A stretch of 64,000 nucleotides of DNA from an uncultured Verrucomicrobiae bacterium (GCA_963772365.1 CAVYXA010000001.1:1280001-1344000); one strand, 5' to 3'; numbered from the stretch's first letter, positions 25,937 to 57,591 are shown. Notes: generated by a model not told the origin, from the sequence alone. A program made the numbers and translations.

Positions 25937-27298
25937 ATGCATCAAACTGTCGTGACCCCACCCACCGCGAAATCCGCAGCGAAACAACGCCGTTCCCGTC
26001 GCAGGCGTCGCATCATTTTCGGCGCGATCGGAGTGGTGCTGCTTTGGATCGTGGTGTCGATCATCTTGAGCAAACGCGAGAAACCGATCCCGGTCACGAC
26101 GGAAAAAGCGGCGAAGCGAACGATCGTTGAAACCGTGTCCGCCACCGGCAAGGTTCAACCCGAGACGGAAGTGAAAATCTCGCCGGAGGTCGCGGGCGAG
26201 ATCATCGAGTTGCCGGTCGAAGATGGAAAAGTAGTCAAGAAGGGCGATCTGCTCCTGAAGATCAAACCAGATACTTACAAAGCGCTTCTCGAACAAGAGG
26301 AGGCGGCAATCAGCGCGGCTAAGGCCACAAACCTTCAGCAAAAAGCGACGATGGTGAAAGCCGAGCAGGACTTGAAACGTGCTGACAACATGTATGCGAC
26401 GAAAGCAATATCGATTCAGGAATACAACGCCGCCCAGGCTGCCTACGACGTTGCGAAAAATACTTACGAGAGTTCGCTGCACGAAATCGAGCGCGCCCAG
26501 GCCGCTTCGAGTCAGGCACGCGAGTCGCTGGCCAAGACGACCATTTATTCACCGCTCGATGGCCGGGTGACCGTATTGAACAGTAAATTGGGCGAGCGCG
26601 TTGTTGCGACCGGGCAGTTTGCCGGCACCGAAGTGATGCGCGTTGCCGATCTGGATCACATGCAGGCCGTTGTCGATGTAAACGAGAACGATGTGGTCAA
26701 AGTCAAACCTGGCGACACGGCAAACGTTAAGATCGACGCTTACGGTGACCGCAATTTCAAAGGCATCGTCCAGCAGATCGCCAATACCGGTACAACGACC
26801 GGTACCGGAACGCAGGAAGAGGTGACAAATTTTGAAGTTAAAATCGATCTCGACCGGGACGGCATATTACTAAGACCCGGCTTAAGCTGTACTGCCGACA
26901 TCGAGACGAACATGGTGAAAGACGCCGTGGCCGTGCCGTTGCAAAGCGTCACCATCCGCACCGGCGACACAAATCTGAGCCCGGAAGAAATTGAGAAACG
27001 CAAACAGAAGGAAGCGGCCCGCGACAAAGGCGACAACAATGCGGAATTCGTGAATGAGCGTCAGCAAAAACAGGCGCAAAAAGAGGAGCACGAGAAGTTG
27101 CAGAAAGGCGTGTTCGTCAAGAACGGCAGTAAAGCGCGGTGGGTAAAAGTCGCGACCGGGATTTCTAACGATACCTACATGGAAGTTAAAACCGGAGTAA
27201 AACCGGGTGATGAAGTGATTTCCGGCAGCTACAGCGCAATCAGCCGAAAGCTGAAGGATGGCGCGAAAGTGACTTATGAAAAGGAAGATAAAAAGTGA
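25937..27298 (+). CDS. Efflux periplasmic adaptor (MacA-like MFP)
   Basis: N-terminal TM, SATGKVQP, ISPEVAGEI, coiled hairpin, TIYSPLDG, LRPGLSC. Confidence 0.92.
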   Translation: MHQTVVTPPTAKSAAKQRRSRRRRRIIFGAIGVVLLWIVVSIILSKREKPIPVTTEKAAKRTIVETVSATGKVQPETEVKISPEVAGEIIELPVEDGKVVKKGDLLLKIKPDTYKALLEQEEAAISAAKATNLQQKATMVKAEQDLKRADNMYATKAISIQEYNAAQAAYDVAKNTYESSLHEIERAQAASSQARESLAKTTIYSPLDGRVTVLNSKLGERVVATGQFAGTEVMRVADLDHMQAVVDVNENDVVKVKPGDTANVKIDAYGDRNFKGIVQQIANTGTTTGTGTQEEVTNFEVKIDLDRDGILLRPGLSCTADIETNMVKDAVAVPLQSVTIRTGDTNLSPEEIEKRKQKEAARDKGDNNAEFVNERQQKQAQKEEHEKLQKGVFVKNGSKARWVKVATGISNDTYMEVKTGVKPGDEVISGSYSAISRKLKDGAKVTYEKEDKK

Positions 27299-27796
27299 CG
27301 GGTGATGAGTGACGAGTGACGAGTGACGAGTGACGAGAGTTTCGCTACAACGCTCGCCATGAAAATGAATACTCCTCGTGATTATAAAGATCTGCTTGTT
27401 TGGCAGAAAGGAATGACGCTTGCGAAAATCATTTACCGGCTAACGCAAAAATACCCGTCAGAAGAGAAATTCGGACTTGTCGCTCAAATGCGCCGAGCAG
27501 CTATTTCGATTCCATCGAACATTGCGGAAGGGCAGGCGCGGCATACGACGGGTGAATTCATTCAGTTTATTTCCCATGCAGAAGGCTCGGTCGCCGAACT
27601 CGACACGCAGTTGATTCTCAGCATCGAGCTCAACTTCTGTCGCGCCGCAGATACCGAAAAGGCCTTTGAATTGATCAATGAGCTCCGAAAGATGCTCAAT
27701 GTGTTGCGGCGTAAGCTTTCCACGAGGCAATAACTCATCACCCGTCACTCGTCACTCGTCACTTCCTCTTCACTCGTCACATGTCACTTGTCACTA
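27294..27796 (+). mobile_element. IR-bounded four-helix-bundle gene element (GAGTGAC heptamer arms)
   Basis: 17-bp perfect IR 27294-27310/27733-27749, plus (GAGTGAC)x4 on the left and GTCACTC-type repeats on the right. Confidence 0.65.
27359..27733 (+). CDS. Four-helix-bundle protein (23S rRNA IVS-protein / bAvd-like family)
   Basis: [51 protein letters not shown]. Confidence 0.93.
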
Positions 27797-28539
27797 GATC
27801 GGCGGAGCCGATCATCATCGACATCGAAAACATCACGAAAGACTACGTGATGGGGGAAGAAATGGTGCATGCGCTGCGCGGGGTGTCGTTGCGGATTCAT
27901 CGCAATGAATATCTCGCCATCATGGGCCCGAGCGGGAGCGGCAAATCGACTCTTATGAACATGCTCGGTTGCCTCGATACACCTTCATCCGGCCGCTACG
28001 AATTCAACGGGCGTAACGTTTCGGAAATGGACGACGATGAGCTCGCTGCGATCCGGAACCGCGAGATCGGATTTGTATTTCAAACTTTCAATCTATTGCC
28101 GCGCGCCAACAGCTTGCGCAATGTCGAGCTGCCCCTGATTTATGGCGGCGTCGATCCAGAAACGCGCGAGGAGCGCGCTGCCCAGGTGCTGCGCGATGTG
28201 GGCTTGGGCGATCGGTTGCATCATAAGCCGAGCGAGCTGTCCGGCGGCCAACGGCAGCGAGTGGCGGTCGCGCGCGCGCTCGTGAACAATCCGTCCATCA
28301 TTTTGGCTGACGAACCGACGGGCAATCTCGATTCGAAAACCGGCGAAGAAATCATGGCCTTGTTTGAAGAGCTGTATCAGCGCGGAAACACGGTCATTCT
28401 GGTCACGCATGAAGCGGATATCGCCCGGCACGCCCGGCGAACGGTTCATTTGCGAGACGGATTGATCGAAAGCGACAACGCGAGTGGCATTGGCATCTTG
28501 CCAATGGAACATCGGCTGGAAGCCGATGCCACGGCCTAG
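27781..28539 (+). CDS. ABC transporter ATP-binding protein (MacB/LolD type)
   Basis: [32 protein letters not shown]. Confidence 0.96.
28484..28532. repeat. GTGGCAT..ATGCCAC palindrome forming the ATPase C-terminal tail
   Basis: Two hairpins (cattggc..gccaatg; catcggct..agccgatg) inside a 7-bp terminal IR; encodes [17 protein letters not shown]. Confidence 0.75.
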
Positions 28540-28541
28540 TG

Positions 28542-29792
28542 ATGAAGCGCTTTCTCTATGAGCTGACCGAGAGCTGGAACATCGCGGCCGCACAGATGCG
28601 GGCGAATAAAACGCGGTCCACGCTTACCGCGCTCGGCGTAATCATCGGCATCGTGGCAGTTACCTTAATGGGAACTGCGATCTCCGGGATCCAGGTCGGA
28701 TTCGATAAGAGCCTCTCGGTCCTCGGCGATGACGTTCTTTACGTCACTCAATGGCCTTGGAAACGCGTGGACGACTGGTGGAATTATCGCGACCGCAAAA
28801 AGATCAAGACCGAGTACGCGGAAAAGCTGAACCGAATGATAGCAGCCACGCCGAACTCGAATCTCATCGTGGCCGTGCCGACCTCGAGCCTGATCCGATC
28901 CGTCAAATACGGCGGAAGCGAAGTCGAAAATGTTTTCGTTCTGGGGACAACCTCGGATTTCATCGTAACATCGACAGTCGATTGCAAAGAGGGCCGGTTT
29001 TTTAACGAGATCGAATCGCGGGGCGCGGCCAACGTTTGTCTCATCGGCTACGACGTGGCCGACGCCCTGTTCCCCGCGGAAAGCCCGATCAACAAAACCG
29101 TGCTCATTAACGGCCAAAATTTCAAGGTCGTGGGCGTGAATAATCGGCAGGGAACATTTCTCGGGTTGTTCAGCTGGGACTCGATGGTGGCGATGCCGCT
29201 GGGTGCCTTCAACAAATACTTCAGCTCCAAAAGCGAATCGGACATTCGAGTGAAAGTGAAAGACAAAACGAAGCTGGCCGAGGCCAAAGACGAATTAACC
29301 GGCCTGATGCGGCGGGTGCGCGGTTTGCCGCCGGAAAAAAAGGATGATTTTTCGATTAACGAGCAAGAGGCATTCAAAACGACGCTCGACCCGGTGAAAA
29401 ATTCGATCGCTATTGCCGGCCTTTTTATCACTGGCCTTTCTCTTTTCGTCGGCGCGATCGGTATCATGAATATCACTTTTGTCAGCGTAAAGGAGCGGAC
29501 GAAAGAGATCGGGACCCGCAAAGCCCTCGGTGCGCGACGTCGCACCATCCTGTTGCAATTTCTCATCGAATCCACGGCGCTTTGTCTTTTAGGCGGATTC
29601 ATCGGGCTGACCGTCGCCTACTTTCTCTGTTTCGGAATCGGCAAAGCCTTCCCCTCGTTCCCAATCAATTTTTCCTTCGGTCTCGTCTTCGCCAGCATGA
29701 TCGTGTCAGTCATGACCGGTTTGTTTTCCGGTTTCGCGCCCGCCTGGAGCGCGTCGCGTCTCGATCCCGTGACGGCACTTAGATATGAATGA
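28542..29792 (+). CDS. ABC transporter permease (MacB/FtsX type)
   Basis: RSTLTALGVIIG, GIMNITFVSVKERTKEIG, LDPVTALRYE. Confidence 0.95.
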   Translation: MKRFLYELTESWNIAAAQMRANKTRSTLTALGVIIGIVAVTLMGTAISGIQVGFDKSLSVLGDDVLYVTQWPWKRVDDWWNYRDRKKIKTEYAEKLNRMIAATPNSNLIVAVPTSSLIRSVKYGGSEVENVFVLGTTSDFIVTSTVDCKEGRFFNEIESRGAANVCLIGYDVADALFPAESPINKTVLINGQNFKVVGVNNRQGTFLGLFSWDSMVAMPLGAFNKYFSSKSESDIRVKVKDKTKLAEAKDELTGLMRRVRGLPPEKKDDFSINEQEAFKTTLDPVKNSIAIAGLFITGLSLFVGAIGIMNITFVSVKERTKEIGTRKALGARRRTILLQFLIESTALCLLGGFIGLTVAYFLCFGIGKAFPSFPINFSFGLVFASMIVSVMTGLFSGFAPAWSASRLDPVTALRYE

Positions 29793-30231
29793 ACGAATTT
29801 TAACCACAGAGATCACGGAGACCACAGAGGTGCTGAAGGAGATCAACCGACTTACCGAGCTAGTGATTGGTTGCGCAATTGAGGTGCATAGCGCACTCGG
29901 TCCGGGATTATTGGAGTCGACATATGAAATGTGTATGTGTCGCGAGCTGGCACTGCGAGCGATTCCTTTCGATCGGCAAAAACCAATCCCAGTTATTTAC
30001 AAAGGTGTGAAGCTCGACTGCGGTTATCGCGCGGACCTGATCGTGGACAATCGCGTCCTCGTGGAAATCAAATCGGTCGATCAAACATGTGCGATCCACG
30101 ACGCACAACTGCTCAGCTATTTGAAGCTGACTGGTCTTAAGGTCGGACTTCTCATTAACTTTAATGTGCGAATGCTAAAAGAGGGAATTCGCCGCAAGGT
30201 CCTGGGCAACCCAAACGAAGTGTCGTTATGA
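29785..30231 (+). CDS. GxxExxY protein (PD-(D/E)XK nuclease-like)
   Basis: VHSALGPGLLESTYE, YRADLIVD..LVEIKS, QLLSYLK..GLLINF. Confidence 0.93.
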   Translation: MNERILTTEITETTEVLKEINRLTELVIGCAIEVHSALGPGLLESTYEMCMCRELALRAIPFDRQKPIPVIYKGVKLDCGYRADLIVDNRVLVEIKSVDQTCAIHDAQLLSYLKLTGLKVGLLINFNVRMLKEGIRRKVLGNPNEVSL

Positions 30232-30258
30232 CTCCGTGTTCTCCGTGATCTCTGTGGT
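29803..30258 (+). mobile_element. IR-bounded GxxExxY element (9-nt ACCACAGAG-type arms)
   Basis: 29803-29829 matches the reverse complement of 30232-30258 at 25/27 nt. Confidence 0.65.
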
Positions 30259-30278
30259 GAATAAAGTCAGAAACTAAA

Positions 30279-31517
30279 ATGTTTGGCGAGATCATAAAGA
30301 TGGCTTTGGCCTCGCTCGGAGTGAACAAGCTTCGCTCCGGGTTGACCATGATCGGGATCACCATCGGTGTGTTCTCCGTCATTTCGGTGATGACTGCTGT
30401 AGGCGCGCTCCAATACTCGATCGAGAACGGAATCAGTTTTCTCGGGGCGAATATTTTCCAGTTCGCCAAATATCCGGCAAACCTCTCTGCCAGCGGCGAC
30501 GTGAAGAAAAAATATCAGAACCGGCGAAACATTAGTTACCGCCAGGCGATGCATTACTACGAACTGATGGAGGGAAACGCCACTGAGATCTGTCTGAAAA
30601 GTTTCGGTTACGAGATTAAAGGTCAGGCCGTTTACAAAGGCGTGAAGACGACCCCGAGCCTTCTTGTCGTCGGAGCCAACCGGAGTTTTCTTACCGCCAA
30701 CGCCTATACGCTCGGTTACGGCCGAAACATCAATGATGAAGATGTTGCATTGTCGCGCCGAGCGCTGGTGGTCGGAAAAGTGATCGAGAAACGATTATTC
30801 CCCCACGAAACCCCGATTGGCAAAGTCATCCGGCTAAGCGGCCACACTTACACCATCATCGGCGTGCTCGCGGAGAAAGGGACCGCGTTCGGCCAGAGCC
30901 AGGACGATCTTTGCATCATGCCGATCACGCGGTTCTTCGAGGATTACGGCGAAGCCAAGCGCACGGTCAATATCGCGACCCAGGCGTTCTCGGCGGAAAC
31001 GTATAATCGCACCCTGGACAGAGCGATCGGAGCGATGCGAATCGCCCGCGGTCTTCGGCCGGATCAGCCCAACGATTTCGAGATTTACTCCAATGATTCG
31101 CTCAAGAGCGCGTTTATTTCCGTGGCTGGAATTGTCCGCGTGGGCGCGTTTGTTATCAGTTTGATCGCGCTAATCGCGGCAGGCATCGGCATCATGAACA
31201 TCATGCTCGTGAGCGTAACCGAACGGACGAAGGAGATTGGCGTCCGCAAATCGATCGGCGCGCGCAGTCGCGACATTCTGCGGCAGTTTCTGGCTGAGGC
31301 CGTATTTATTTCCGAGGCAGGCGGTATCCTGGGCATCATTCTAGGGATCATCGTCGGCGATTTGCTGGCAGCCTGGCTGAAGGTGGACGTGATTTTTCCC
31401 TATGGATGGGCCATTGCCGGATTAGTTGTGTGTTCGGCAATCGGTATCGGATTCGGGTTGTATCCGGCCTATCGAGCTGCTTCTCTCGATCCAATCGAAG
31501 CCCTGCGCTACGAGTAA
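30279..31517 (+). CDS. ABC transporter permease (MacB/FtsX type)
   Basis: NKLRSGLTMIGITIG, GIMNIMLVSVTERTKEIG, LDPIEALRYE. Confidence 0.95.
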   Translation: MFGEIIKMALASLGVNKLRSGLTMIGITIGVFSVISVMTAVGALQYSIENGISFLGANIFQFAKYPANLSASGDVKKKYQNRRNISYRQAMHYYELMEGNATEICLKSFGYEIKGQAVYKGVKTTPSLLVVGANRSFLTANAYTLGYGRNINDEDVALSRRALVVGKVIEKRLFPHETPIGKVIRLSGHTYTIIGVLAEKGTAFGQSQDDLCIMPITRFFEDYGEAKRTVNIATQAFSAETYNRTLDRAIGAMRIARGLRPDQPNDFEIYSNDSLKSAFISVAGIVRVGAFVISLIALIAAGIGIMNIMLVSVTERTKEIGVRKSIGARSRDILRQFLAEAVFISEAGGILGIILGIIVGDLLAAWLKVDVIFPYGWAIAGLVVCSAIGIGFGLYPAYRAASLDPIEALRYE

Positions 31518-31531
31518 GATCGACAAATTAG

Positions 31532-31561
31532 AGAGCGGCAGCGAAGCGCGCCTGCCGCTCT
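31532..31561. terminator. Terminator-like hairpin after the ABC operon
   Basis: AGAGCGGCAG-10nt-CTGCCGCTCT. Confidence 0.55.
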
Positions 31562-31789
31562 TGCTCTCGGGTCGCGAGAGCCTAACCCCTCAGAATTGGT
31601 GTTTGGTGGAGTCGACTGCCTACTCTAGACTTTATAGTTTTAGTATAAATTATCAGCCGAAGGCAATACAAATCTTGGCGGATCCGCCATCCGCGCGGAT
31701 AACATCCGACCGCTCAAACCGACCCAGTTGCTCAATTGCCGATTGGCGTTTATCATCTCTAGCGCGTCAAAAACGCGCCTTTTCTATTC

Positions 31790-32221
31790 ATGCAGAAAAT
31801 TGGATTTGCCGAAGCTCTCGACTCCATCGTCGCGAGCGATCAGCGCTATCAACGGGAGGCTTACGTCTTTCTGCGGGACGCGCTCGATTTCACGACTAAA
31901 CAGCAAAAGCGAGCGCGGGGCGCGACCGTCCGCCACGTTTCGGGACCGGAATTGCTCGATGGCGTGCGCCAATATGCTCTGAAAGAGTTTGGACCGATGG
32001 TAATGACGGTGTTCGATGCCTGGGGAGTTCATTGCACGGAAGACATTGGGCACATGGTTTTTAATCTGATCAGTGCCGGCATTTTCGGAAAGACAGCGGA
32101 AGATTCGATCGAGGATTTTAAAAACGTGTATGATTTCGAAGAAGCTTTCGTTAAACCATTCGCACCAGAAAAACCTGTCACTCCGCAGCGGAAGCCAGGT
32201 TTTCCCGCGCCAAAATCTTAG
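31790..32221 (+). CDS. Minf_1886-type (Verrucomicrobia/Planctomycetes-restricted) protein
   Basis: RYQREAYVFL..ALD, RHVSGPELL..FGPM..VFDAWG..TEDIG..VFNLI..FGKT..DSIEDF. Confidence 0.8.
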   Translation: MQKIGFAEALDSIVASDQRYQREAYVFLRDALDFTTKQQKRARGATVRHVSGPELLDGVRQYALKEFGPMVMTVFDAWGVHCTEDIGHMVFNLISAGIFGKTAEDSIEDFKNVYDFEEAFVKPFAPEKPVTPQRKPGFPAPKS

Positions 32222-32266
32222 CCAATCCGCCCCGCCACTACTTGAAACGGAGCGTGTTAACAAATC

Positions 32267-34940: not shown

Positions 34941-34959
34941 AATGATTTCAAGGTACACT

Positions 34960-35040: not shown

Positions 35041-35070
35041 AAAACAAAAGCGGGCTGTTCGCTGTAGAAT

Positions 35071-35538: not shown

Positions 35539-35559
35539 CACCCGGCGTTCGCGCCTTCG

Positions 35560-36318: not shown

Positions 36319-36365
36319 GTGTGCCGACACACACCAGGAACCACGCGTTCCGTTTCACTATCGTA

Positions 36366-36708
36366 TAGCGCCAAAGGCGCTGCTCACCGTTAGCCTGGGG
36401 CATCGCCCCGGGAATGGAAAGGTCCACGGCGGCAGCGCTGGAAGCGCGAATCAGTTCTCCTCTGCTAATCGATATCGTCGGCTATCCCACCCGTAGCGTT
36501 CATCGAAATCGATGCCGTGTCGGCGCAACAGCTCGCGATATTCCTCCTGAAACCTGCGAGTGCGATGGTGATCCGATTGCGTGTAGATGTATCGAAGCAC
36601 AGCCTCGAGCTGACTCGGGCTCACTGAAAACGCACCATAACCGCGCTGCCAGAAAAATAATCCTGGGGCGATACCCCAGGCTAATGGTAAAGGGCGCCTT
36701 TGGCGCTA
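36366..36708. mobile_element. Non-autonomous IR-flanked element with IS200/RAYT-type transposase remnant
   Basis: ~50-bp inverted repeats 36366-36415 and 36659-36708 (tagcgccaaaggcgc..ttagcctgggg.atcgcccc.gg). Confidence 0.8.
36451..36660 (-). pseudogene. tnpA: C-terminal half of an IS200/IS605-family Y1 transposase
   Basis: Manual translation FFWQRGYGAFSVSPSQLEAVLRYIYTQSDHHRTRRFQEEYRELLRRHGIDFDERYGWD; no start and no HUH region. Confidence 0.85.
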
Positions 36709-36820
36709 AACACGTCGCCCGGTCGTTAATCTTCTAGTTAATAGCCGGGGCATCGGCCTCTGAAATGGCTTCGCGACAAGCGCTGGTCACGATACTAAAT
36801 CTCTGCTACTTAAAACGCTC

Positions 36821-49366: not shown

Positions 49367-49442
49367 CCAGCGCAAGCATTCCGCGGCATCATTTCAGGGA
49401 ATTCTTGTACTAACAATAAAGACAAAACATAATTGCGACCCG

Positions 49443-50030
49443 ATGCCGACCCGGTTGAAATCTTCGAAAGGCTTCACTTTGCTGGAGCTCATGGTGGTCA
49501 TCCTTGTGATCGCCACATTGATGGCTCTGGCGGTTCCGGTTTATCAAGGCGTTCTGGAACGGGCGAGGAAAGTCCAGGCGAAAAACGACGTCACTCAGAT
49601 TGTGACCGCCATCAATGCTTACTATACGGAGTATGGTAAATACCCGGTTGCAGCCGATGACACGCCGATCACCGATAATGGCACTTTGTTTAATGCGTTG
49701 CGTGCCGTTACCGGGAGTGATTCTGATAACCTGCGAAAGATCGTCTTCATATCGCCTCCCAACGTGAAAAGTGACACCGTCGGAACCAGGCGAGGCGGCG
49801 TCAGTCCAACTGACGGCAACTATTACGACCCATGGGGGAATTCCTATCGCGTAGCGATTGATGGCACTTATGACAATCAAATCGCAAATCCGTACAACGC
49901 CGACAGCGGCGCTGGTCCAAGCCAACTAAGGCAAGGTGTCATCGTGTGGTCGCTGGGCAAAGACAACATGCTCGGAAAAGCTGGAGATAGCGTGTTCACG
50001 GGCTCCGACGACGTGATTTCGTGGCAGTGA
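49443..50030 (+). CDS. Prepilin-type N-terminal cleavage/methylation protein (pseudopilin-like)
   Basis: KG|FTLLELMVVILVIATL, DPWGNSY, VWSLGKD, DDVISW. Confidence 0.9.
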   Translation: MPTRLKSSKGFTLLELMVVILVIATLMALAVPVYQGVLERARKVQAKNDVTQIVTAINAYYTEYGKYPVAADDTPITDNGTLFNALRAVTGSDSDNLRKIVFISPPNVKSDTVGTRRGGVSPTDGNYYDPWGNSYRVAIDGTYDNQIANPYNADSGAGPSQLRQGVIVWSLGKDNMLGKAGDSVFTGSDDVISWQ

Positions 50031-50033
50031 ATG

Positions 50034-50104
50034 AGCGGGTGAAGGGAATCGAACCCTCGTATGCAGCTTGGGAAGCTGCCGTTCTACCATTGAACTACAC
50101 CCGC
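50034..50104 (-). tRNA. tRNA-Gly (CCC)
   Basis: GCGGGTGTAGTTCAATGGTAGAACGGCAGCTTCCCAAGCTGCATACGAGGGTTCGATTCCCTTCACCCGCT cloverleaf; CCA not encoded. Confidence 0.97.
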
Positions 50105-50258
50105 GGAGGAACGTTCGATGCTCGATGTTTGATGTCGGATTTGCAAGCGCCGATTGGTCGCCCATAGCGCCAATATTGGTTTGCCAAGAAAAGATCGACA
50201 GTGAGATAGTAACGAAACGCGGCGTCGCGTTATCGAAGGTGACGCCTCGATTTTCCTA

Positions 50259-50729
50259 ATGCCAGTCGATCTGCCGCAAACAACTCAAAGAATGGGAGGA
50301 CCACTGGTCAAACAGTTCTCCGTATTTCTCCCGAACAAGGTCGGTGCGATGCTCGACCTGGTGAAACTGCTTAATAGTCACGATACTCATGTGGTCGCAC
50401 TTAGCGTTTCCGAGTCGACGGATTCGGCCATCGCCCGAATCATCGTAAGCGATCCGCAGCGGGTGGAAAAGTTGTTGCGGGAAAACAACATTGCCTTTGG
50501 GCTGAGCGAAGTTGTTGTCGTCGAGTTGCACGAAGTGGCGACCCAACTGGTCAAGCTTCTTGCGGCGTTGTTCATGGCGGAAGTGAATGTGCACTTTACC
50601 TATCCGTTATTGACCAGACCACATGGATTCGCCGCTCTCGCTCTTCACGTGGATGACACCGATTGCGCCTCGTCGGTGCTGCTGAGCGAAGGATTCAAAA
50701 CGCTCAGTCAAAACGATATTTCCCGGTAG
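50259..50729 (+). CDS. Tandem ACT-domain protein
   Basis: VKQFSVFLPNKVG..ALSVSES.D.AIARIIV.DP; second repeat ..AEVNVHFTY. Confidence 0.82.
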   Translation: MPVDLPQTTQRMGGPLVKQFSVFLPNKVGAMLDLVKLLNSHDTHVVALSVSESTDSAIARIIVSDPQRVEKLLRENNIAFGLSEVVVVELHEVATQLVKLLAALFMAEVNVHFTYPLLTRPHGFAALALHVDDTDCASSVLLSEGFKTLSQNDISR

Positions 50730-50834
50730 AATTTCACACTACAGCCCCGGTTCTCCGGCCGGTTCGTTGGGATTTTTCCAAATTCAGTCTGACCGTGGCA
50801 TAAGCGAAGCTTTACCGATCACGTTCCCTGGCTT

Positions 50835-51173
50835 ATGAAACTATTCCGTAAGAGTAGTCCGGCACATCATTCCGTCGAGCCTCCTCCGATTCCCAGCTCG
50901 CTGGTGGTGCCGCCCAAGCCGACGATTTGTCTCAGCGCCGAGCAAAAAGCGATTCTGGAGCAACCTGTCGATCCTCGTGTGGACCGCATCCTGGGTGAAA
51001 TCTACGGCGAAAAGGCTGCGGCAGAACGGGCTCTCAAATCTCATCTTCGAATCGTCAAATTTCCCGACGCTCATTCCGAGGAGCGGCACGTCGTGCAGGA
51101 TAAAAACGGGTTCTGGCGAATCGTTCCGGGCCCGGCGCCGAACGAAAAAAGCGGTTTATTTGACGCGTTGTAG
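50835..51173 (+). CDS. Hypothetical protein
   Basis: 112-aa ATG ORF filling the gap; no recognisable motif. Confidence 0.55.
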   Translation: MKLFRKSSPAHHSVEPPPIPSSLVVPPKPTICLSAEQKAILEQPVDPRVDRILGEIYGEKAAAERALKSHLRIVKFPDAHSEERHVVQDKNGFWRIVPGPAPNEKSGLFDAL

Positions 51174-51202
51174 CAGCGCAATTCTCTTGCGGGGCGGGTC
51201 AA

Positions 51203-51883
51203 TCAATCCGCCGTTTGTTGGAGAAGAAACTCGGCCAGACGCAAATCGCGCGGATAAGTAATTTTGAGATTGCACTCTTTATTTAGGACGAGAGCTATCT
51301 TGTGACCGATGATTTCGACCGCTGATACTTCGTCAGTAACAGACAGTTCTTTCTCGGAGATCAGGCGATAAGCTTTCTCGAGTAAACTTCTCTCGAAGAT
51401 CTGAGGTGTTTGCATGGCATATAGATCGTGACGATCCACTGATCCAGTTACATTCAAATCAGCATCGGCGCGTTTGATTGTATCTCGGATCGGCTCGGCC
51501 AATGTCGCGGCGCCCGTCGCCCGAGCCTTTTGGTAAACAGATTCAATTTGTGACGGGCTAACGAGTGGTCGCGCTGCATCGTGGACGGCAACATATTTTA
51601 TTTCGCTGCCAAGCTTCGCCAAACCTGCCCGAACAGAATCTTGTCGATGTTCCCCTCCACGGACAATGGATCGCACTTTCGTAAAATTCTCCGCACGGAC
51701 CAGTTCTTCCATCTCGCGATGTCGATCCTCTCGGGCGACGACAAGAATTTCGCTGACCGATTTGGCCTTTTGAAACGCTGCGATAGCGTGCGCGACCACC
51801 GGTTTGCCGGCGATCTGGACAAATAATTTGTCGACAGCCATGCGACGACTGCTGCCGGCGGCGACCAGAATTACTGAAAGCAT
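51203..51883 (-). CDS. ispD: 2-C-methyl-D-erythritol 4-phosphate cytidylyltransferase
   Basis: AAGSSRRM, GGEHRQDSV, VHDAARP, QTPQIF, TDE, NLKITYP. Confidence 0.95.
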   Translation of the reverse strand: MLSVILVAAGSSRRMAVDKLFVQIAGKPVVAHAIAAFQKAKSVSEILVVAREDRHREMEELVRAENFTKVRSIVRGGEHRQDSVRAGLAKLGSEIKYVAVHDAARPLVSPSQIESVYQKARATGAATLAEPIRDTIKRADADLNVTGSVDRHDLYAMQTPQIFERSLLEKAYRLISEKELSVTDEVSAVEIIGHKIALVLNKECNLKITYPRDLRLAEFLLQQTAD

Positions 51884-51892
51884 CGTGGAGGT

Positions 51893-51988
51893 GTTAAAAC
51901 GCTGAACCGTTGAACCGGAATACAGCCATTGTCATTTTGAGCGAAGCGAAGAATGGAGCGAATGGAAATAACGTTTCAACGATTTAAC
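51893..51988. repeat. Gene-less 8-nt-unit inverted arms with a nested half GTCAT element (51929-51955)
   Basis: gttaaaacgctgaaccgtt vs aacgtttcaacgatttaac (16/19 complementary); inner ttgtcattttgagcgaagcgaagaat. Confidence 0.6.
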
Positions 51989-51989
51989 G

Positions 51990-52442
51990 TCACGACAGTT
52001 GGCGCGACACTTCCGCGCTTAGCGTTTTCCCATCGGCTCGTCCGGCCACTTTCGCCTGCAACGCTTTCATGACCGCGCCCATTTGTGCTTTCGATGTTGC
52101 TCCAACTTCGGCAATTGTTTCGCGCACTGCTTTGGACAGCTCATCAGCGCTCATCGCCTGTGGCAGATAAGAATTCAGGATCGACAATTCTTCTTTCTCC
52201 TTCGCAGCCAGTTCGGGCCGCCCGCCTTTTTCAAAGCTCTCGATGGAATCCTGTCGCTGCTTGGCTTGTTTGCGAACCACCTGGGTTACCTCAGTATCGT
52301 TCAACTGACCTTCGGCTCCGGACTTCTCGATTGCCGCATTCTTCATCGCCGCTTTCAGCATCCGTAAAACGCCAAGCCTCGTCGCCTCCCTGGACCGCAT
52401 CGCCTCTTTCAAATCCGAATCTACGCGTTCAACGATCGTCAT
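51990..52442 (-). CDS. GatB/YqeY domain protein
   Basis: DLKEAMR..RLGVLRMLKAA, KQRQDSIE.F..GGR.ELA.KE, YLPQ, MGAVM. Confidence 0.93.
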   Translation of the reverse strand: MTIVERVDSDLKEAMRSREATRLGVLRMLKAAMKNAAIEKSGAEGQLNDTEVTQVVRKQAKQRQDSIESFEKGGRPELAAKEKEELSILNSYLPQAMSADELSKAVRETIAEVGATSKAQMGAVMKALQAKVAGRADGKTLSAEVSRQLS

Positions 52443-52452
52443 GGCGCAAAGA

Positions 52453-52478
52453 TTGTAGCGGCGGTCTGTGACCGTCGC
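52453..52478. repeat. GTAG-type REP-like single arm
   Basis: ttGTAGcggcggtctgtgaccgtcgc, near-identical to 23499-23521. Confidence 0.75.
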
Positions 52479-52503
52479 AAACTACGGCTCCTAACTTAAC
52501 CGC

Positions 52504-53440
52504 TCACAAGGCGGCGAGCTGCTCGGCGCATCTTCGCACCGATTCCGCGTCGGTCACCGAAACAACATCCATGTCTTTTCGTGTACGCCTGAGCAATCCG
52601 GCGAGCACGCCGCCCGGGCCGAGTTCTATGAAAAAATCGCAGCCGAGTTGAACGAGGCGCTCCATGCAATCGGTCCAACGAACAGGTCCTCGTAATCTGG
52701 TCCTGCAATGTCCGGTGGATTTCCGGCAGCGTTTTGACCTCTTCGCCAGTTACATTGCTGATCACCAGAAATTGCGGCAATTGCATTTGAACGTCGAGAA
52801 GCGCCGAGCCGAATTTTTGATAGGCTTTTTCCATGAGGCGCGAATGATAGGCGCCGGCAACGTTGAGCATCGTTGCGCGACGCACGCCATATTTTTTCGC
52901 GACCCCGACAGCCGCTTCTACCTTGGCCAATTCACCCGAAATCACGATCTGCCCCGGCGCGTTGATGTTCGCAACATCGACATCTTCATCCGCCGCGAGA
53001 CGCCTGACATCGTTCTCCGCGCCGCCGATCAGCGCCGCCATTCCTCCCCGCGTCTCCTGACAGGCTTTGTCCATCAATTCGCCACGAGTCTGCACGAGCT
53101 TCAGGCCACTGGCGAAATCGAAGGTGCCTGCGGCAGCATGCGCAGTAAGTTCGCCCAGCGATAAACCGGCCGCGCCACCAATCGAAAGATCACCCGTTAA
53201 TTCGCGCAGCACTTCGAGGCAGGCGAGGCCATGAACGTAAAGAGCTGGCTGACAATTCGACGTTTTCGTCAATTCCTCGATAGGACCATTCCAGGCGATG
53301 TCGGTCAGTTTGCGTTCCAGAATTTCATCCGCCTGTCGAAACAATGCACCTGCCGTGGCGAATTGTTCCGCAAGATCGCGACCCATACCGACGGTCTGCG
53401 CGCCCTGACCGGCAAACAGCAATGCAACTTTCTTTGGCAT
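52504..53440 (-). CDS. fabD: Malonyl-CoA-ACP transacylase, one frameshift near 52690
   Basis: FAGQGAQ, GLSLGE, NAPGQIVISG, VAGAYHS; the shifted frame continues PVRWTDCM..ELGPGGVL to a stop at 52504. Confidence 0.93.
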
Positions 53441-53542
53441 GACACTTTGTAAACGTGTTTCAGGCCGATCGCGAGTCGGGAATTAGTAAAAGTGCTTGCG
53501 CGCAAGAGTCCACTCGCCAGCGTAAAAGGAACTGTCGATTTT

Positions 53543-54799
53543 ATGCCTTTCACTGTGCGCGAAATTGAATCGCCCGATCCCGTAACGCGCGTGGTCGCGG
53601 CAGACGCGAAGTTGCACGAAGCAGATCAGGACATTGGCGAGAAGATGGTTCTCAACATGGGACCATCGCATCCGGCAACTCACGGCGTGCTGCGACTCGT
53701 GCTGGAGCTCGATGGCGAAATCATTGTCAAAGCGGAACCGGATGTAGGCTTTTTGCATCGCGGCGATGAGAAGATCGCCGAGAACATGCAATACAATCAG
53801 TTCGTGCCTTACACGGACCGGCTCGATTATCTTGCCCCGCTCTCGAACAATGTCGCTTACGCGCTGGCGGTGGAAAAATTGATGGGCTGGGACGTCCCGC
53901 CTCGAGGCAAGACCATTCGAACAATTTGCTGCGAAACTTCGCGGATCTCGTCGCATTTGCTGGGGCTCGGTTCGATGGCGCTCGATCTCGGCGCCATGAC
54001 CGTGTTTCTCTACACTTTCAAAGAACGGGAAAAACTTTACGATCTCTTCGAGCTATTGACCGGCGCGCGTTTCACGACTTCCTATACGCGCGTTGGTGGC
54101 CAAATTCGCGACTTGCCGGACACATTTATTCCGCGGCTCAAAAAATTTCTCGATGATTTCCCTCCGAGCCTGGACGAGTGCGATAATTTGCTGACGCGGA
54201 ACAAGATTTTTGTCGATCGTACCAAAGACATTGGAGTCATTCCTAAAGATCGGGCAATCGCTTACGCTTTGTCTGGACCGAACTTGCGAGGAAGCGGAAT
54301 CGAACACGACCTGCGGCGCAAACATCCGTATCTGGATTACGAGCATTACGACTTCGATGTCGTGATTGGCAGCGCGGGAGATTGCTATGATCGTTACCTG
54401 GTGCGCATCGAAGAGATGCGTCAGAGCATCCGCATTTTGCGGCAGGCAATCGAGAAACTACCGAGTGGCCCCATCAATCTGTCTGATTGGAAGAACATGA
54501 CGCCGCCGAAATCGCACACGATGACCAAAATGGAGGAGCTGATTCATCATTTCATTGTCGTGACCGAAGGACTCGATTCGCCGCCGGGGGAAGTTTATTT
54601 CGCGGCGGAAAATCCAAAAGGGGAGCTGGGTTTTTACATCAACAGCAAAGGCGGCGGAGTTCCGCATCGCCTGAAGATCCGGGCGCCGTCATTTGTGAAC
54701 CTGAGCATTCTGCCGGAGCTATTGCCCGGCTGCATGGTGAGCGACATACCAGCCGTGCTAGGCAGTCTGGACTTCGTGATGGGCGAATGCGACAGATGA
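53543..54799 (+). CDS. nuoD: NADH-quinone oxidoreductase subunit D
   Basis: NMGPSHPATHGVLR, GFLHRGDEK, DRLDY, ENPKGELG, DFVMGECDR. Confidence 0.96.
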   Translation: MPFTVREIESPDPVTRVVAADAKLHEADQDIGEKMVLNMGPSHPATHGVLRLVLELDGEIIVKAEPDVGFLHRGDEKIAENMQYNQFVPYTDRLDYLAPLSNNVAYALAVEKLMGWDVPPRGKTIRTICCETSRISSHLLGLGSMALDLGAMTVFLYTFKEREKLYDLFELLTGARFTTSYTRVGGQIRDLPDTFIPRLKKFLDDFPPSLDECDNLLTRNKIFVDRTKDIGVIPKDRAIAYALSGPNLRGSGIEHDLRRKHPYLDYEHYDFDVVIGSAGDCYDRYLVRIEEMRQSIRILRQAIEKLPSGPINLSDWKNMTPPKSHTMTKMEELIHHFIVVTEGLDSPPGEVYFAAENPKGELGFYINSKGGGVPHRLKIRAPSFVNLSILPELLPGCMVSDIPAVLGSLDFVMGECDR

Positions 54800-54828
54800 T
54801 TTGGGTTCGTGATTGGATAAATCGTTAC

Positions 54829-55128
54829 ATGGTTAAATCGAGAATTCGTTTCAGTGTTCCAGCGCGGGCTTTCGTACTCCTGCTCATGATCGTGCTCGGA
54901 ATTTCGTGTTCCAATAACAGGTTGCGTAAGGCCAATGTCGATGAAGTGACCGAGGGAATGTCGAAGAAGCAGGTCGAATCGATTCTTGGCCCACCCAGCG
55001 ACGTGGATAATACGGACTTCGTTCTTTCGAAAAAGATGACTTACGTTTACCGCCAGGATAACGGCACGGTGACGATCGTATTTAAAGACGACAAGGTTAC
55101 CGATAAATACAGCACCCTGCCCCGCTGA
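54829..55128 (+). CDS. Small lipoprotein, SmpA/OmlA-like; start uncertain (54796 or 54829)
   Basis: Lipobox-like LGISC, then GMSKKQVESILGPP..YVY..IVF.DDKV. Confidence 0.7.
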   Translation: MVKSRIRFSVPARAFVLLLMIVLGISCSNNRLRKANVDEVTEGMSKKQVESILGPPSDVDNTDFVLSKKMTYVYRQDNGTVTIVFKDDKVTDKYSTLPR

Positions 55129-55136
55129 TTTCTCTA

Positions 55137-57119
55137 GTGAACTCGACGAGCACAAATGTTCCCGCCGAGTTAGAGCGGCAGATGGATGAGGCGATCGCCC
55201 GTTATCCGGAAGATCGACAACGGAGTGCGGCCATGCCGCTGCTTCATCTTTGGCAGGAGAATTTCGGATTCATTAACGGCGAAGCGGTCACGTGGATCGC
55301 GGCCAAGCTCGGTCTTCAGCCGATCAATATTCTGGAGCTGGTCTCGTTTTATCCGATGTTCCGCACAGCGCCGGCTGGCCGAACCCATATTCGGGTTTGC
55401 CGGACGCTGAGCTGTGCAATGGCGGGCGCGTATCAGGTGATGGAAAATCTGTGCGGGGCCACCCACATTCAGCGCAATGTCGATCGCGAAGGAATGCACA
55501 ATCCGATCTCGGTAAGCCCGAACGGACATTACAGCATTGAGTTTGTGGAATGCCTGGCCAGTTGCGGCACTGCTCCGGTTTGCATGGTTAACGAGCAACT
55601 GCACGAGGGTGTGCAACCGAGCTTCGCGTCAAATATTCTGACCGGCCCCCCGATATTGCTCTATGTGAATCCGTCGCATCCGCTCGAGCATCGCCTCGTT
55701 TTCAAAAATATCGGGAACCAGGATTGGACGACCGACATTGATTGTTATTTGCGCAACGGTGGCTACGAAGACTTGCGCAAAGCTGTCACGATGTCGCGGG
55801 AGCAAATCGTGAATGAGATCAAAACATCCGGACTTCGTGGCCGCGGTGGAGCCGGATTTCCGTGCGGAGTAAAATGGGGGTTCATCAAGCCGAACGAGAA
55901 GCGACCGGTTTATCTGATCTGTAATGCGGATGAATCGGAGCCCGGCACGTTTAAAGATCGCTACATCATTCACGAGGATCCGCATCAACTGCTCGAAGGA
56001 ATTCTGATCTCATGCTTCGCCCTAAACGCGCGAACAGCCTATATTTACATTCGAGGCGAGTTTCCCGAAGGCGCGAAGATTCTCGAACGCGCCATCGAGG
56101 AAGCGCGGGCGCATAATTTTTTAGGCGAAGATATTCTCGGGACCGGGTTCGATGTCGAGGTTTACATTCACCGAGGCGCAGGCGCTTACATCTGTGGCGA
56201 GGAAACGGGCTTGATCGAATCGCTCGAAGGCAAGCGGGGTTATCCACGAATCAAGCCGCCCTATTTTCCGGCGGTGCTCGGTCTCTATATGTGCCCCACG
56301 ATCGTGAACAATGTCGAAACGCTCTGCCATGTGAAACAGATCATCGCCATGGGCGGCGCGAAGTATGCGCGACTCGGACGGCCTAACAATACTGGAACGC
56401 GCATCGTTTGCGTGAGCGGCGATGTCCAGCGACCGGGATATTTTGAAATCGAAGTAGGCGCGGTCACAATGGGCCAGCTGATCTACGATTTGGCTGGCGG
56501 TATGAGATTTGGCCGCACGCTCAAAGCCGTCATTCCCGGTGGGACATCGGCTAAAGTTTTGCGCGCCGATGAGCGGTTCAAGCTCAAGGAGAAACAGCCC
56601 GATGGATCGACAATCGAGCGGGAAATGTCGATCGACGAACTCCCATTGGATTTTGATTCGCTAGCCGCCGCCGGATCCATGGCTGGTTCCGGAGGAGTGA
56701 TCGTGCTCGACGATTCACGCGACATGGTCTGGGCGCTCAACAATATCAACGAATTTTATGCTCACGAATCGTGTGGTCAGTGCACTCCCTGTCGCGAAGG
56801 TTCGCTTTGGATGAAGAAAATTACCGACCGGATGCTGCTAGGAGGCGGCGTAACGCAGGATCCACAGACGTTAAAGACAATCGGCGATAACATCGCCGGA
56901 CGTACCATCTGCGCGTTCGGCGAAGCTTGCGCCTGGCCGACCCAAAGTTTCGTCCAGAAATTCCCGGAGGAATTCGCCGCTCACGCGCAGAAAGCTTCGC
57001 CGCCGCCACTGCCGCCTGAGATCACACCGGAAGAATTGATCGAGAAAGAAAAAATTCCCACTGTTCCCATGGCACGCGATCCGGGCTGGGAAAAAGCCGG
57101 CGCCGCAGGAACGATTTAG
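55137..57119 (+). CDS. nuoEF: Fused NADH-quinone oxidoreductase subunits E and F
   Basis: NuoE: VSFYPMF, VCRTLSC, ECLASCGTAP; NuoF: LRGRGGAGF, NADESEPGTFKD, GAYICGEET, HESCGQCTPCREG. Confidence 0.93.
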   Translation: MNSTSTNVPAELERQMDEAIARYPEDRQRSAAMPLLHLWQENFGFINGEAVTWIAAKLGLQPINILELVSFYPMFRTAPAGRTHIRVCRTLSCAMAGAYQVMENLCGATHIQRNVDREGMHNPISVSPNGHYSIEFVECLASCGTAPVCMVNEQLHEGVQPSFASNILTGPPILLYVNPSHPLEHRLVFKNIGNQDWTTDIDCYLRNGGYEDLRKAVTMSREQIVNEIKTSGLRGRGGAGFPCGVKWGFIKPNEKRPVYLICNADESEPGTFKDRYIIHEDPHQLLEGILISCFALNARTAYIYIRGEFPEGAKILERAIEEARAHNFLGEDILGTGFDVEVYIHRGAGAYICGEETGLIESLEGKRGYPRIKPPYFPAVLGLYMCPTIVNNVETLCHVKQIIAMGGAKYARLGRPNNTGTRIVCVSGDVQRPGYFEIEVGAVTMGQLIYDLAGGMRFGRTLKAVIPGGTSAKVLRADERFKLKEKQPDGSTIEREMSIDELPLDFDSLAAAGSMAGSGGVIVLDDSRDMVWALNNINEFYAHESCGQCTPCREGSLWMKKITDRMLLGGGVTQDPQTLKTIGDNIAGRTICAFGEACAWPTQSFVQKFPEEFAAHAQKASPPPLPPEITPEELIEKEKIPTVPMARDPGWEKAGAAGTI

Positions 57120-57591
57120 AATGAATCAGGAAAGCAGGAAAGCAGGAAGATTACGAGACAAGGAACTGACGGATAGAATCATTGCCGCCGCTATTCGTGT
57201 TCATCGCGAATTGGGACCCGGCTTTCTCGAAGCCATCTATGAAGAAGCACTTGCCGTCGAATTCGCTTTGACTGGAATTCAGTTCATTCGGCAAAAACCA
57301 ATACCGCTATTCTATCGGGACCACCAAAATCGGCGAACACCGGCTGGATTTTCTTGTCGAGGACAAGATCGTGGTCGAATTGAAGGCAATCAGTGCTCTC
57401 GACGACATTCATTTTGCAATTGGCCGCAGTTATTTGAAAGCGGCAAATCTTCAAGATGGGCTTCTTCTGAATTTTGCGACCGCTCCTTTAATGATCAAAC
57501 GCTTTTGTCGTGAGCGTCCACTTCAAGATGAGGATGTCGATCTTGTTCTGTAATCCCAACCTTTCCTGTTTTCCTGCTTTCCTCATTCATT
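57120..57591 (+). mobile_element. IR-bounded GxxExxY element (8-nt CAGGAAAG arms)
   Basis: 57120-57147 matches the reverse complement of 57564-57591 at 26/28 nt. Confidence 0.65.
57121..57553 (+). CDS. GxxExxY protein, one frameshift in an A-run near 57326
   Basis: VHRELGPGFLEAIYE; second frame HRLDFLVEDKIVVELKA..SYLKA..GLLLNF. Confidence 0.9.

What the first reader, a model, noticed from the sequence alone, without database searches (positions are those of the whole stretch)
27294..57591. Candidate family of 'operon-intervening' elements: single genes wrapped in inverted microsatellite arms
Seen: three insertions share one design despite two unrelated cargo families and three different repeat units. 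They are four-helix-bundle at 27294-27796 (7-nt GAGTGAC), GxxExxY at 29803-30258 (9-nt ACCACAGAG) and GxxExxY at 57120-57591 (8-nt CAGGAAAG). Each is co-oriented with its host operon and lies between a stop codon and the next gene. The purine-rich arm comes first and the pyrimidine-rich arm second, so on mRNA or ssDNA the arms would pair and loop out the cargo. Known: four-helix-bundle proteins were first found in excised 23S rRNA intervening sequences and are related to the DGR accessory protein bAvd; GxxExxY proteins have a PD-(D/E)XK nuclease fold. Inference: a selfish or regulatory element class that enters operons without polarity, perhaps processed at the RNA stem or mobilised by the nuclease. 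I do not know of a mechanistic description of this.
Basis: partly seen in the sequence, partly recalled or inferred. Interest (0 to 1): 0.85.

Follow-up and report, generated by a model that had tools for sequence, protein, structure and literature searches.

The report
Hairpin-armed gene cassettes swapped between operons
Three tiny genes of unknown function, each bracketed by mirror-image short repeats, sit between the stop and start codons of ordinary operon genes, and relatives show such cassettes being lost, gutted or precisely swapped at the same spot, which points to an undescribed, slow-moving kind of selfish DNA related to the spacers known from ribosomal RNA.

Summary
Observation confirmed. 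E1 is a four-helix-bundle (23S-IVS-type) gene. E2 and E3 are GxxExxY PD-(D/E)XK nuclease genes; E3 is frameshifted. Each has inverted tandem-repeat arms.

The design is genome-wide: 14 of 18 such genes have strong arms, against 12 of 3120 control ORFs. In relatives the same junctions are filled, gutted, arm-only, filled by another cassette, or empty. Each cassette clade keeps one junction and its own arm word. In one close pair (flanks 90-99% identical) the nuoF-nuoG cassette was replaced (65% identical), exchanging only tens of flanking bases, with no target duplication seen. Gene-less hairpins with the same arm are more numerous where the cognate nuclease is present, though only part of that effect is cognate-specific.

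Best reading (about 0.5): DNA-level, junction-homing selfish cassettes. The closest known relative is the Coxiella 23S IVS. This scan noted the architecture before in at least eight other genomes and elsewhere in this one. Nine paper searches found no description.

The parts
25916..27298 (+). macA-like periplasmic adaptor gene, upstream host gene of E1; its stop codon lies in the first unit of the left arm
   Evidence: TIGR01730 168 bits
27294..27337 (+). E1 left arm, about 6.3 copies of a 7-nt unit (AGTGACG)
   Evidence: TRF score 74
27359..27733 (+). E1 cargo: four-helix-bundle / 23S rRNA-IVS protein (Xcc0516/S23p family), intact, 124 aa
   Evidence: TIGR02436 119 bits, PF05635 128 bits, PDB 2GSC E 1.7e-27; Avd models below cut-off
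27734..27797 (+). E1 right arm, about 9 degenerate reverse-complement units; contains the predicted ATPase start at 27781
27781..28539 (+). MacB/LolD-type ABC ATPase (host)
28539..29792 (+). ABC permease 1 (host), upstream of E2
29785..30231 (+). E2 cargo: GxxExxY PD-(D/E)XK nuclease-like protein, intact; start overlaps the permease 3' end; left arm encodes its N-terminus
   Evidence: TIGR04256 150 bits, PF13366 146 bits; invariant E, D, E, N and near-invariant K, Q, Y in 103 homologs; model pLDDT 96
29800..29829 (+). E2 left arm, three 9-nt units (ACCACAGAG type)
30232..30261 (+). E2 right arm (reverse complement), starting directly after the cargo stop
30279..31517 (+). ABC permease 2 (host)
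55137..57119 (+). fused nuoE-nuoF (host), stop codon abutting E3
57120..57148 (+). E3 left arm, three 8-nt units (CAGGAAAG); encodes the cargo N-terminus
57121..57553 (+). E3 cargo: GxxExxY gene broken by a frameshift in the A-run at 57326-57329; this clade lacks the Gln of the QxxxY motif
   Evidence: two half-hits, 61.5 and 56.3 bits
57563..57591 (+). E3 right arm, ending 1 nt before the nuoG start
57593..59314 (+). nuoG (host)

Best explanation
These are promoterless, slowly mobile selfish cassettes (arm - small gene - inverted arm) that occupy the stop-start junctions of operons and act mainly at the DNA level.

Shown:
- Each cassette lineage has its own arm word and, within this bacterial family, one home junction.
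- Cassettes are lost, internally deleted, reduced to arms, or replaced by another cassette there.
- At least once a cassette was exchanged with only tens of flanking bases, with no target duplication seen.
- The genes are under purifying selection.
- Gene-less hairpins with the same arm and unique loops are scattered over the chromosome.

Inferred:
- The cassette borrows the operon's transcript and is translationally coupled to the upstream stop, so co-oriented copies persist.
- The GxxExxY nuclease recognises its own three-unit arm (or the cruciform it forms) or the cognate junction, and cuts DNA. This drives short-tract gene conversion into the home junction when chromosomal DNA is exchanged, and more often seeds arm-only hairpins elsewhere.
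- Four-helix-bundle cassettes such as E1 use the same packaging but have no nuclease, so they need an activity in trans. The 23S rRNA IVS is the same cassette landed in rRNA.
For: Enrichment: 14/18 vs 12/3120; 79 of 108 distinct GxxExxY loci, with 2 of 205 shifted windows as control; 21/28 vs 0/54 for four-helix-bundle loci.

Allelic series: nuoF-G, 23 scorable of 25 family genomes: 13 GxxExxY, 1 gutted, 1 four-helix-bundle, 1 gutted four-helix-bundle, 7 empty, interspersed on the host tree. Permease-permease, 30 loci: 2, 2, 1, 2, 7 arm-only, 16 empty.

Junction fidelity: the E3 clade is single-copy in 24 of 61 genomes, and all 24 are at nuoF-G.

Replacement: G062 vs G078 flanks are 90-99% identical to the junction, while the cassettes are 65% identical with different arm subtypes. 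The same pair's permease cassettes are 93% identical. Their metK-ahcY alleles are filled vs empty and differ only about 8-10 codons into each gene. Cargo and flank trees conflict at strongly supported nodes (AU p 2.4e-5, 0.011, 0.0009). No flank co-conversion signal in 150-nt windows.

Selection: pN 0.19 vs pS 0.79.

Arm word tracks the cargo clade, including one family across 17 phyla at unrelated junctions.

Arm copies minus the cassette's own two: median 15 with cognate gene vs 3 without, and 7.5 vs 2 for a second family; cognate t 3.6 and 3.3, non-cognate t 2.1 and 1.0.

The nuclease site is conserved; the nearest folds are Cas4, lambda-exonuclease and restriction-type nucleases.
Against: - No activity, binding, excision or expression is shown; no sequencing run was listed.
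- The clean swap rests on one pair of fragmented MAGs (410 and 530 contigs): a chimeric contig is possible, and the direction (gain or loss) is unknown.
- No recent copies exist in G000: cargos are at most 53% and 62% identical.
- The E2-site cargo tree is largely congruent with the host (8 taxa, one moderate conflict).
- Cross-tests of the arm-count association are also positive (p 5e-4 and 0.01, same genus-contrast scores), so much of it is a general element-rich-genome effect; it is not corrected for phylogeny.
- Arm labels on the tree came from regexes I wrote after seeing the arms, and two rows were mislabelled (L168, L077). The tree is the quick one.
- An arm pairs strictly best with its own partner in only 5/11, 2/7, 1/6 and 18/49 loci.
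- Fold matches are weak (Foldseek E >= 2e-3, VIA Z <= 7.9).
- A 130-aa nuclease has no evident DNA-binding or recombinase domain, the E3 clade lacks the Gln of QxxxY, and E1 has no nuclease at all.
Confidence: 0.5

Rival explanations
1. RNA-level intervening sequence. The arms exist to form an mRNA stem that RNase III cuts or that loops the cargo out, making the insertion harmless or tuning operon expression, as for the 23S rRNA IVS.
For: The Coxiella IVS has a 28-bp terminal stem with tandem heptamers before an S23p ORF and is excised by RNase III (PMC4990558, passages). The stems are predicted to fold here (z -3.4 to -4.9). Co-orientation: 12 of 18 loci by automated calls vs 39% background, p 0.016; 46 of 64 armed loci with both neighbours called. 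No promoter or terminator match at the arms.
Against: No G-U bias on the sense strand: 56 vs 65 and 22 vs 22; the test has modest power. The arm sequence itself, not just pairing, is kept across genera and phyla while synonymous sites are saturated. Order is pyrimidine-first in 14 of 79. Arm-only hairpins also lie in divergent and convergent spacers (3 of 16 rows). This reading does not explain how the cassettes move. It can coexist with the best explanation as a side effect.
Confidence: 0.2
2. Domesticated accessory genes. Each cassette entered once long ago, is inherited vertically because it, or its hairpin, benefits the host, and decays by deletion. Apparent swaps come from ordinary recombination or assembly chimeras.
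For: One junction per clade; purifying selection; E2-site congruence and 93% identity in G062/G078; no close paralogs in G000; GxxExxY relatives on 8 of 72,556 plasmids and none found in 50,697 phages. RAYT genes behave like this (10.1101/2021.07.10.451892, section 4).
Against: Empty alleles are common and scattered over the host tree, so no junction needs a cassette. Unrelated cassettes occupy the same junction in close relatives (G000 vs G001). Ordinary recombination with a diverged donor would be expected to bring long flanks, yet only tens of bases differ. One clade with one arm family sits at unrelated junctions in 17 phyla.
Confidence: 0.2
3. Classical insertion sequence with MITE derivatives: arms are terminal inverted repeats with repeated transposase sites, and the cassette transposes to new sites.
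For: Fixed three-unit arms at both ends and many arm-only derivatives. A near-identical arm-only hairpin sits at two junctions of one operon in G001. One four-helix-bundle clade with related arms is at different junctions (one of its four rows is unpublished G008).
Against: No target-site duplication seen in the one close filled/empty pair. Single copy per genome. No transposase family hit. The loops of arm-only copies are unique rather than shared.
Confidence: 0.08

Closest known systems
ORF-bearing 23S rRNA intervening sequence (Coxiella burnetii helix 45; Leptospira), PMC4990558 (passages read)
   Same: Same protein family as E1 (PF05635/S23p, PDB 2GSC), about 430-500 nt, about 28-bp terminal inverted repeats, tandem heptamers before the ORF, patchy distribution, unknown mode of spread.
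   Different: E1 lies between protein-coding genes, not in rRNA. RNase III excision was not testable. E2 and E3 carry an unrelated nuclease. The Coxiella ORF is described as decaying, whereas the E3-type genes are under purifying selection.
REPIN-RAYT systems (10.1101/2021.07.10.451892, abstract and section 4; PMC3733652, passages)
   Same: Single-copy gene at a fixed extragenic site, flanked by inverted repeats, rare on plasmids; dispersed gene-less elements with conserved arms and variable spacer.
   Different: The enzyme is PD-(D/E)XK or a helical bundle, not an HUH tyrosine transposase. Arms are tandem words, not palindromes. Copies number in the tens, not hundreds. The E3-type gene is not congruent with its host.
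Free-standing homing endonucleases, intronless homing (phage T4 seg/mob; PMC2988022, passages)
   Same: A nuclease gene between conserved genes, site-faithful, with filled, degenerate and empty alleles and no target duplication seen.
   Different: Chromosomal rather than phage-borne; not GIY-YIG or HNH; bracketed by arms. Flank exchange is only tens of bases, whereas free-standing enzymes cut far away and co-convert flanks. A nuclease-free cargo shows the same pattern.
Intergenic heptamer repeats (TAACTGA in Beggiatoaceae, PMC4679880, passages; cyanobacterial STRR, recalled)
   Same: 7-nt tandem repeats next to start and stop codons inside housekeeping operons.
   Different: Described as direct repeats. 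The paper has no occurrence of 'S23', 'four helix' or 'intervening', so no link to a cargo gene is made there.
DGR accessory protein Avd (PMC10053308, passage)
   Same: Homologous four-helix-bundle fold; weak hits to NF033474 (33 bits) and PF22296 (22 bits).
   Different: Both hits are below cut-off (80 and 40). E1's neighbours are ABC transporter genes, with no reverse transcriptase next to it.

Membership tests
TIGR02436 / PF05635 (E1 protein) | score above curated cut-off | tested here: met
   119 vs 24 bits; 128 vs 33.8 bits
TIGR04256 / PF13366 GxxExxY (E2, E3 proteins) | score above cut-off | tested here: met
   E2 150 bits; E3 halves 61.5 and 56.3 vs 35
PD-(D/E)XK nuclease | fold and catalytic D...E-x-K | tested here: met
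   D68 and E78 invariant, K80 >=90% in 103 sequences; model pLDDT 96; top fold hits are all of this fold, though weak
PD-(D/E)XK nuclease | nuclease activity | not testable with these tools
   needs an assay; listed as function unknown in PMC3424549 (table row)
23S rRNA IVS | terminal inverted repeats forming an approx. 28-bp stem around an S23p ORF | tested here: met
   E1 against the description
23S rRNA IVS | located in an rRNA helix | tested here: not met
   flanked by macA and the ATPase; Rfam finds only a tRNA in the window
23S rRNA IVS | excised from the transcript by RNase III | not testable with these tools
   no run listed; the indirect G-U test was negative
REPIN-RAYT | HUH tyrosine transposase | tested here: not met
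   cargos hit only PF05635/PF22296 and PF13366
REPIN-RAYT | single-copy gene at a fixed site, rare on plasmids | tested here: met
REPIN-RAYT | dispersed elements depend on the cognate gene | tested here: inconclusive
   cognate effect present but cross-effects too; not phylogeny-corrected
REPIN-RAYT | gene phylogeny congruent with host | tested here: not met
   E3 clade; roughly met for the E2 site
Free-standing homing endonuclease | site fidelity with filled, degenerate and empty alleles | tested here: met
Free-standing homing endonuclease | substantial co-conversion of flanking DNA | tested here: not met
   partial rho -0.07 in the nearest 150 nt on both sides; only tens of bases differ in G062/G078
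Free-standing homing endonuclease | cleaves the cassette-free allele | not testable with these tools
   needs an assay
IS / MITE | target-site duplication | tested here: inconclusive
   none seen in the single close filled/empty pair; other pairs are too diverged
IS / MITE | multiple near-identical copies per genome | tested here: not met
   the one identical pair (G012) includes its flanks and looks like an assembly duplicate
DGR Avd | above Avd cut-off and linked to a reverse transcriptase | tested here: not met
   32.7 vs 80 bits; neighbours are ABC transporter genes

The most novel reading that the evidence does not exclude
An undescribed class of chromosomal selfish elements in many phyla. 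A minimal PD-(D/E)XK nuclease recognises its own tandem-word arms, homes precisely into the stop-start junctions of housekeeping operons with almost no flanking exchange, and spawns populations of gene-less hairpins. The four-helix-bundle cassettes, including the rRNA intervening sequences known since 1990, would be nuclease-free passengers of the same route. This would explain both the spread of IVSs and the excess of 7-9-nt intergenic repeats in bacterial genomes.
Probability: 0.3. Interest if true: 0.9.

Novelty: new variant of a known kind. Interest (0 to 1): 0.72.

Why it matters
Two large protein families of unknown function (PF05635, PF13366) gain a shared genomic anatomy and a testable substrate: the clade-specific arm and the home junction. 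How rRNA intervening sequences spread is described as unclear in PMC4990558; finding the same cassette moving between ordinary operon junctions makes that question testable in harmless model strains. A roughly 130-aa nuclease tied to precise, seemingly scar-free junction exchange would be a new, very small mobility module. These cassettes also rewrite the ends of housekeeping genes (the E1 arm supplies the predicted ATPase start).

Tried and rejected
- Sequencing runs: none was listed for 26500-31000. This is no evidence either way, and read laying was not used.
- Single-sequence structure prediction was useless (pLDDT 36). The PDB sequence search with the GxxExxY profile found nothing.
- G-U wobble test for an RNA stem: negative.
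- Co-conversion in 150-nt and 90-nt windows: none seen.
- Cargo remnants or shared loops in CAGGAAAG arm-only hairpins: none among 21 loops, apart from local duplications.
- A recent duplicate in G012 was rejected as an assembly duplicate (99.9% over 1795 nt including flanks).
- Concerted evolution of the two arms: only weak support.
- Stop-start juxtaposition as evidence for an RNA function was rejected, because empty junctions are themselves only 0-22 nt.
- Promoters or terminators at the arms: none. Rfam families: only a tRNA.
- Phage carriage: not found in 50,697 records.
- A wider search of genus g40 gave only 4 genomes. The four-helix-bundle locus of G078 had no match in G062.
- The AU tests compare fully resolved trees and overstate the conflict; I rely on the named nodes instead.
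- Paper searches found no description of the arm-plus-cargo design outside rRNA. Subscription journals are not covered, and I read no supplements.


Full report
1. Observation. The window lies in a 3.35-Mb, 6-contig genome. Family hits (Minf_1886) and the nearest named records place it among Chthoniobacteraceae-like Verrucomicrobiota. The three elements are present as described. E1 holds an intact four-helix-bundle gene (TIGR02436, PF05635, PDB 2GSC E 1.7e-27) between macA and the ATPase. E2 holds an intact GxxExxY gene between two permeases. E3 holds a GxxExxY gene between fused nuoEF and nuoG, broken by a frameshift at 57326-57329. One frameshift site was found in 42 kb of conserved genes of this genome, so a real mutation is more likely than a read error, but this is not proven. 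Predicted folds close each cassette in a long stem (z -4.85, -3.44, -4.21).

2. More than chance. The genome has 6 GxxExxY loci and 12 four-helix-bundle loci. With one scoring rule, 14 of these 18 reach an arm score of 14, against 12 of 3120 crude ORFs (6 of 1173 short ones). By my reading those 12 sit in other palindromic repeat families or next to arms. For GxxExxY loci from relatives and other phyla, 81 of 111 rows pass, against 2 of 205 shifted windows. Three loci were dropped for short flanks and three rows are duplicates; after de-duplication it is 79 of 108. The cross-phylum set is the best 80 of 556 relatives of E2, so it samples E2's clade only. For four-helix-bundle genes, 21 of 28 loci pass against 0 of 54 controls; 2 partial loci of the 30 fetched were left out. 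Co-orientation on both sides holds for 12 of 18 own loci by crude automated calls (background 39%, p 0.016) and for 46 of 64 armed loci with both neighbours called.

3. Allelic series. At nuoF-nuoG, 23 of 25 family genomes were scorable: 13 full-length GxxExxY (three frameshifted or broken), 1 internally deleted, 1 four-helix-bundle cassette with other arms, 1 deleted copy of that (G001, the same genus as G000), and 7 empty spacers of 0-22 nt. Five more genomes, picked for many arms and no intact gene, gave 3 arm-only, 1 deleted and 1 empty. These states are interspersed on the nuoF/G tree. In the 30 best-scoring of 59 macAB loci, the macA-ATPase junction (29 scorable) has the E1 cassette in 3 and arm-only hairpins in 2. 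The permease-permease junction has 2 GxxExxY, 2 remnants, 1 four-helix-bundle, 2 remnants of it, 7 arm-only and 16 empty. metK-ahcY likewise carries GxxExxY in some genomes and a four-helix-bundle cassette in G004.

4. One clade, one junction, one arm word. On the quick protein tree (core only, arms excluded) clades match arm words; the labels were my own regexes and two rows were mislabelled. Within the family each GxxExxY clade maps to one junction (the gene names metK-ahcY, cdsA-dxr, uvrD-malQ and nuoK-nuoL are my reading of the translations). The E3 clade is single-copy in 24 of 61 genomes and all 24 lie at nuoF-G. E2's wider clade keeps one arm family across 17 phyla at mostly unrelated junctions. 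Own-genome cargos are at most 53% and 62% identical. E3-type genes are old and constrained: median pS 0.79, pN 0.19 over 55 pairs. GxxExxY relatives occur on 8 of 72,556 plasmids, 6 of them over 400 kb, and were not found in 50,697 phages. So there is no ongoing transposition in this genome.

5. But not purely vertical. Cargo and flank trees at nuoF-G conflict. Host clades imposed on the cargo give AU p 2.4e-5, although one of the two single constraints was not rejected (p 0.055). Cargo clades imposed on the host give p 0.011 and 0.0009 (11 taxa including unpublished G003 and G008). With 25 genomes, none flagged unpublished, the host groups G062 with G078 (100) and G004 with G052/G063/G079 (100), while the cargos fall in different subclades. 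G062 and G078 are 90-99% identical in 90-nt windows up to the junction, but their cassettes are 65% identical with different arm subtypes. Identity breaks in the last two nuoF codons and resumes about 25-30 nt into nuoG. Their permease cassettes are 93% identical, like the flank at 94.5%, which is an internal vertical control. At metK-ahcY G062 is filled and G078 empty, differing about 8 codons before the stop and 10 codons after the start, with no duplication seen. Across 25 genomes the nearest 150 nt of flank does not follow the cargo (partial rho -0.07). Caveats: this is one pair of fragmented MAGs, the direction is unknown, and the E2-site tree is largely congruent with its host.

6. Gene-less hairpins. 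G000 has 15 distinct arm-only hairpins under a strict filter; four carry the E3 arm. In relatives such hairpins keep the three-unit arm, have unique loops and often nest. The E3 arm occurs in 56 of 61 genomes, while the reversed control occurs in none. After subtracting two own arms, genomes with the intact core clade have a median of 15 copies (n 17) against 3 (n 32; 12 genomes with divergent or broken genes excluded). For the metK family it is 7.5 (n 10) against 2 (n 51). Cross-tests are also positive (p 5e-4, 0.01). A joint regression gives cognate t 3.6 and 3.3, non-cognate 2.1 and 1.0 (includes G008; no correction for relatedness). This is partial support for a REPIN-like dependence.

7. 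RNA or DNA. If the stem were selected as mRNA, G-U-compatible mismatches should favour the sense strand. They do not: 56 vs 65 and 22 vs 22. Order is pyrimidine-first in 14 of 79 loci. No run was listed to test processing. RNase III cleavage may still happen, but nothing here shows selection for it.

8. The proteins. In 103 GxxExxY sequences the GxxE glutamate, D68, E78 and N109 are invariant, and K80, Q92 and Y96 are at 90% or more. The model (pLDDT 96) matches Cas4, lambda exonuclease and restriction-type nucleases weakly (E >= 2e-3; Z <= 7.9). That QxxxY marks RecB-like nucleases is recalled, not from a call. The E3 clade lacks this Gln. PF13366 is listed as function unknown with multiple transfers (PMC3424549, one table row).

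9. Mechanism. Shown: architecture, allelic series, junction fidelity, selection, and one precise replacement. Inferred: translational coupling, arm or junction recognition, cutting, short-tract conversion, seeding of hairpins, and a trans activity for E1-type cassettes. Confidence is about 0.5; RNA processing 0.2; domesticated vertical genes 0.2; classical IS 0.08.

10. Known relatives. The Coxiella 23S IVS has the same protein, stem length and tandem heptamers (PMC4990558, passages). E1 works like an IVS by anatomy but fails the rRNA-location test. The family is scattered over CPR rRNA insertion sites (PMC11270868, passages) and was noted inside cas loci (PMC3936711, one passage). The system resembles REPIN-RAYT (abstract and section 4; PMC3733652 passages) without the HUH enzyme, and free-standing homing endonucleases (PMC2988022, passages) without long co-conversion. 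Nine searches found no account of the design outside rRNA; subscription journals and supplements were not seen. Earlier notes of this scan report the architecture in at least eight other genomes and on another contig of this one. I saw no mention of junction fidelity, the precise swap, the negative G-U test or the arm-count association in the few lines shown of those notes.

11. Verdict. Real and not an artefact. It is a new variant of the IVS kind for E1, and possibly a new class for the nuclease cassettes (probability 0.3). Interest 0.72.

Noticed in passing
G000:C1:1420430-1420768 (-): A four-helix-bundle cassette with arms sits inside a fragmented hsdM-like pseudogene, so not every cassette lies between genes.
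   Followed up: partly
window 55137-57119: nuoE and nuoF are fused in one 660-aa ORF; long uninterrupted frames in relatives suggest the fusion is shared.
   Followed up: no
window 36363-36711: 51-nt inverted arms (84% complementary) of another palindromic type enclose 247 nt with no Pfam hit, upstream of lpxC-fabZ; possibly a gutted REP-flanked cassette.
   Followed up: partly
window 23501-23548, 24638-24748, 60410-60506: REP-like hairpins; two resemble families repeated elsewhere in the genome.
   Followed up: no
G000:C1:1726090-1728975 and C3:398907-403524: Dense clusters of a 22-28-nt repeat in both orientations.
   Followed up: no
G000:C3:792352-792747: An extended 7-nt array with a short hairpin and a long reverse array, with no cargo-family hit.
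   Followed up: no
L035 (G001): A near-identical approx. 146-nt arm-only hairpin at two successive junctions of the macAB operon, which suggests local copying.
   Followed up: partly
L168: Each side of the GxxExxY gene is a complete hairpin (arm plus reverse arm), a possible route to the reversed-arm orientation.
   Followed up: no
L121 (Chloroflexota): An E2-clade cassette lies directly upstream of a nuoG-like gene in another phylum.
   Followed up: no
L212-L214 (G024): Arms of different families are nested inside one another.
   Followed up: no
G000:C1:1469421-1469747: A second cargo gene in this genome appears frameshifted: the match covers only model positions 3-86.
   Followed up: no
window 50034-50135: A tRNA gene (- strand) next to a short 7-nt tandem array.
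   Followed up: no
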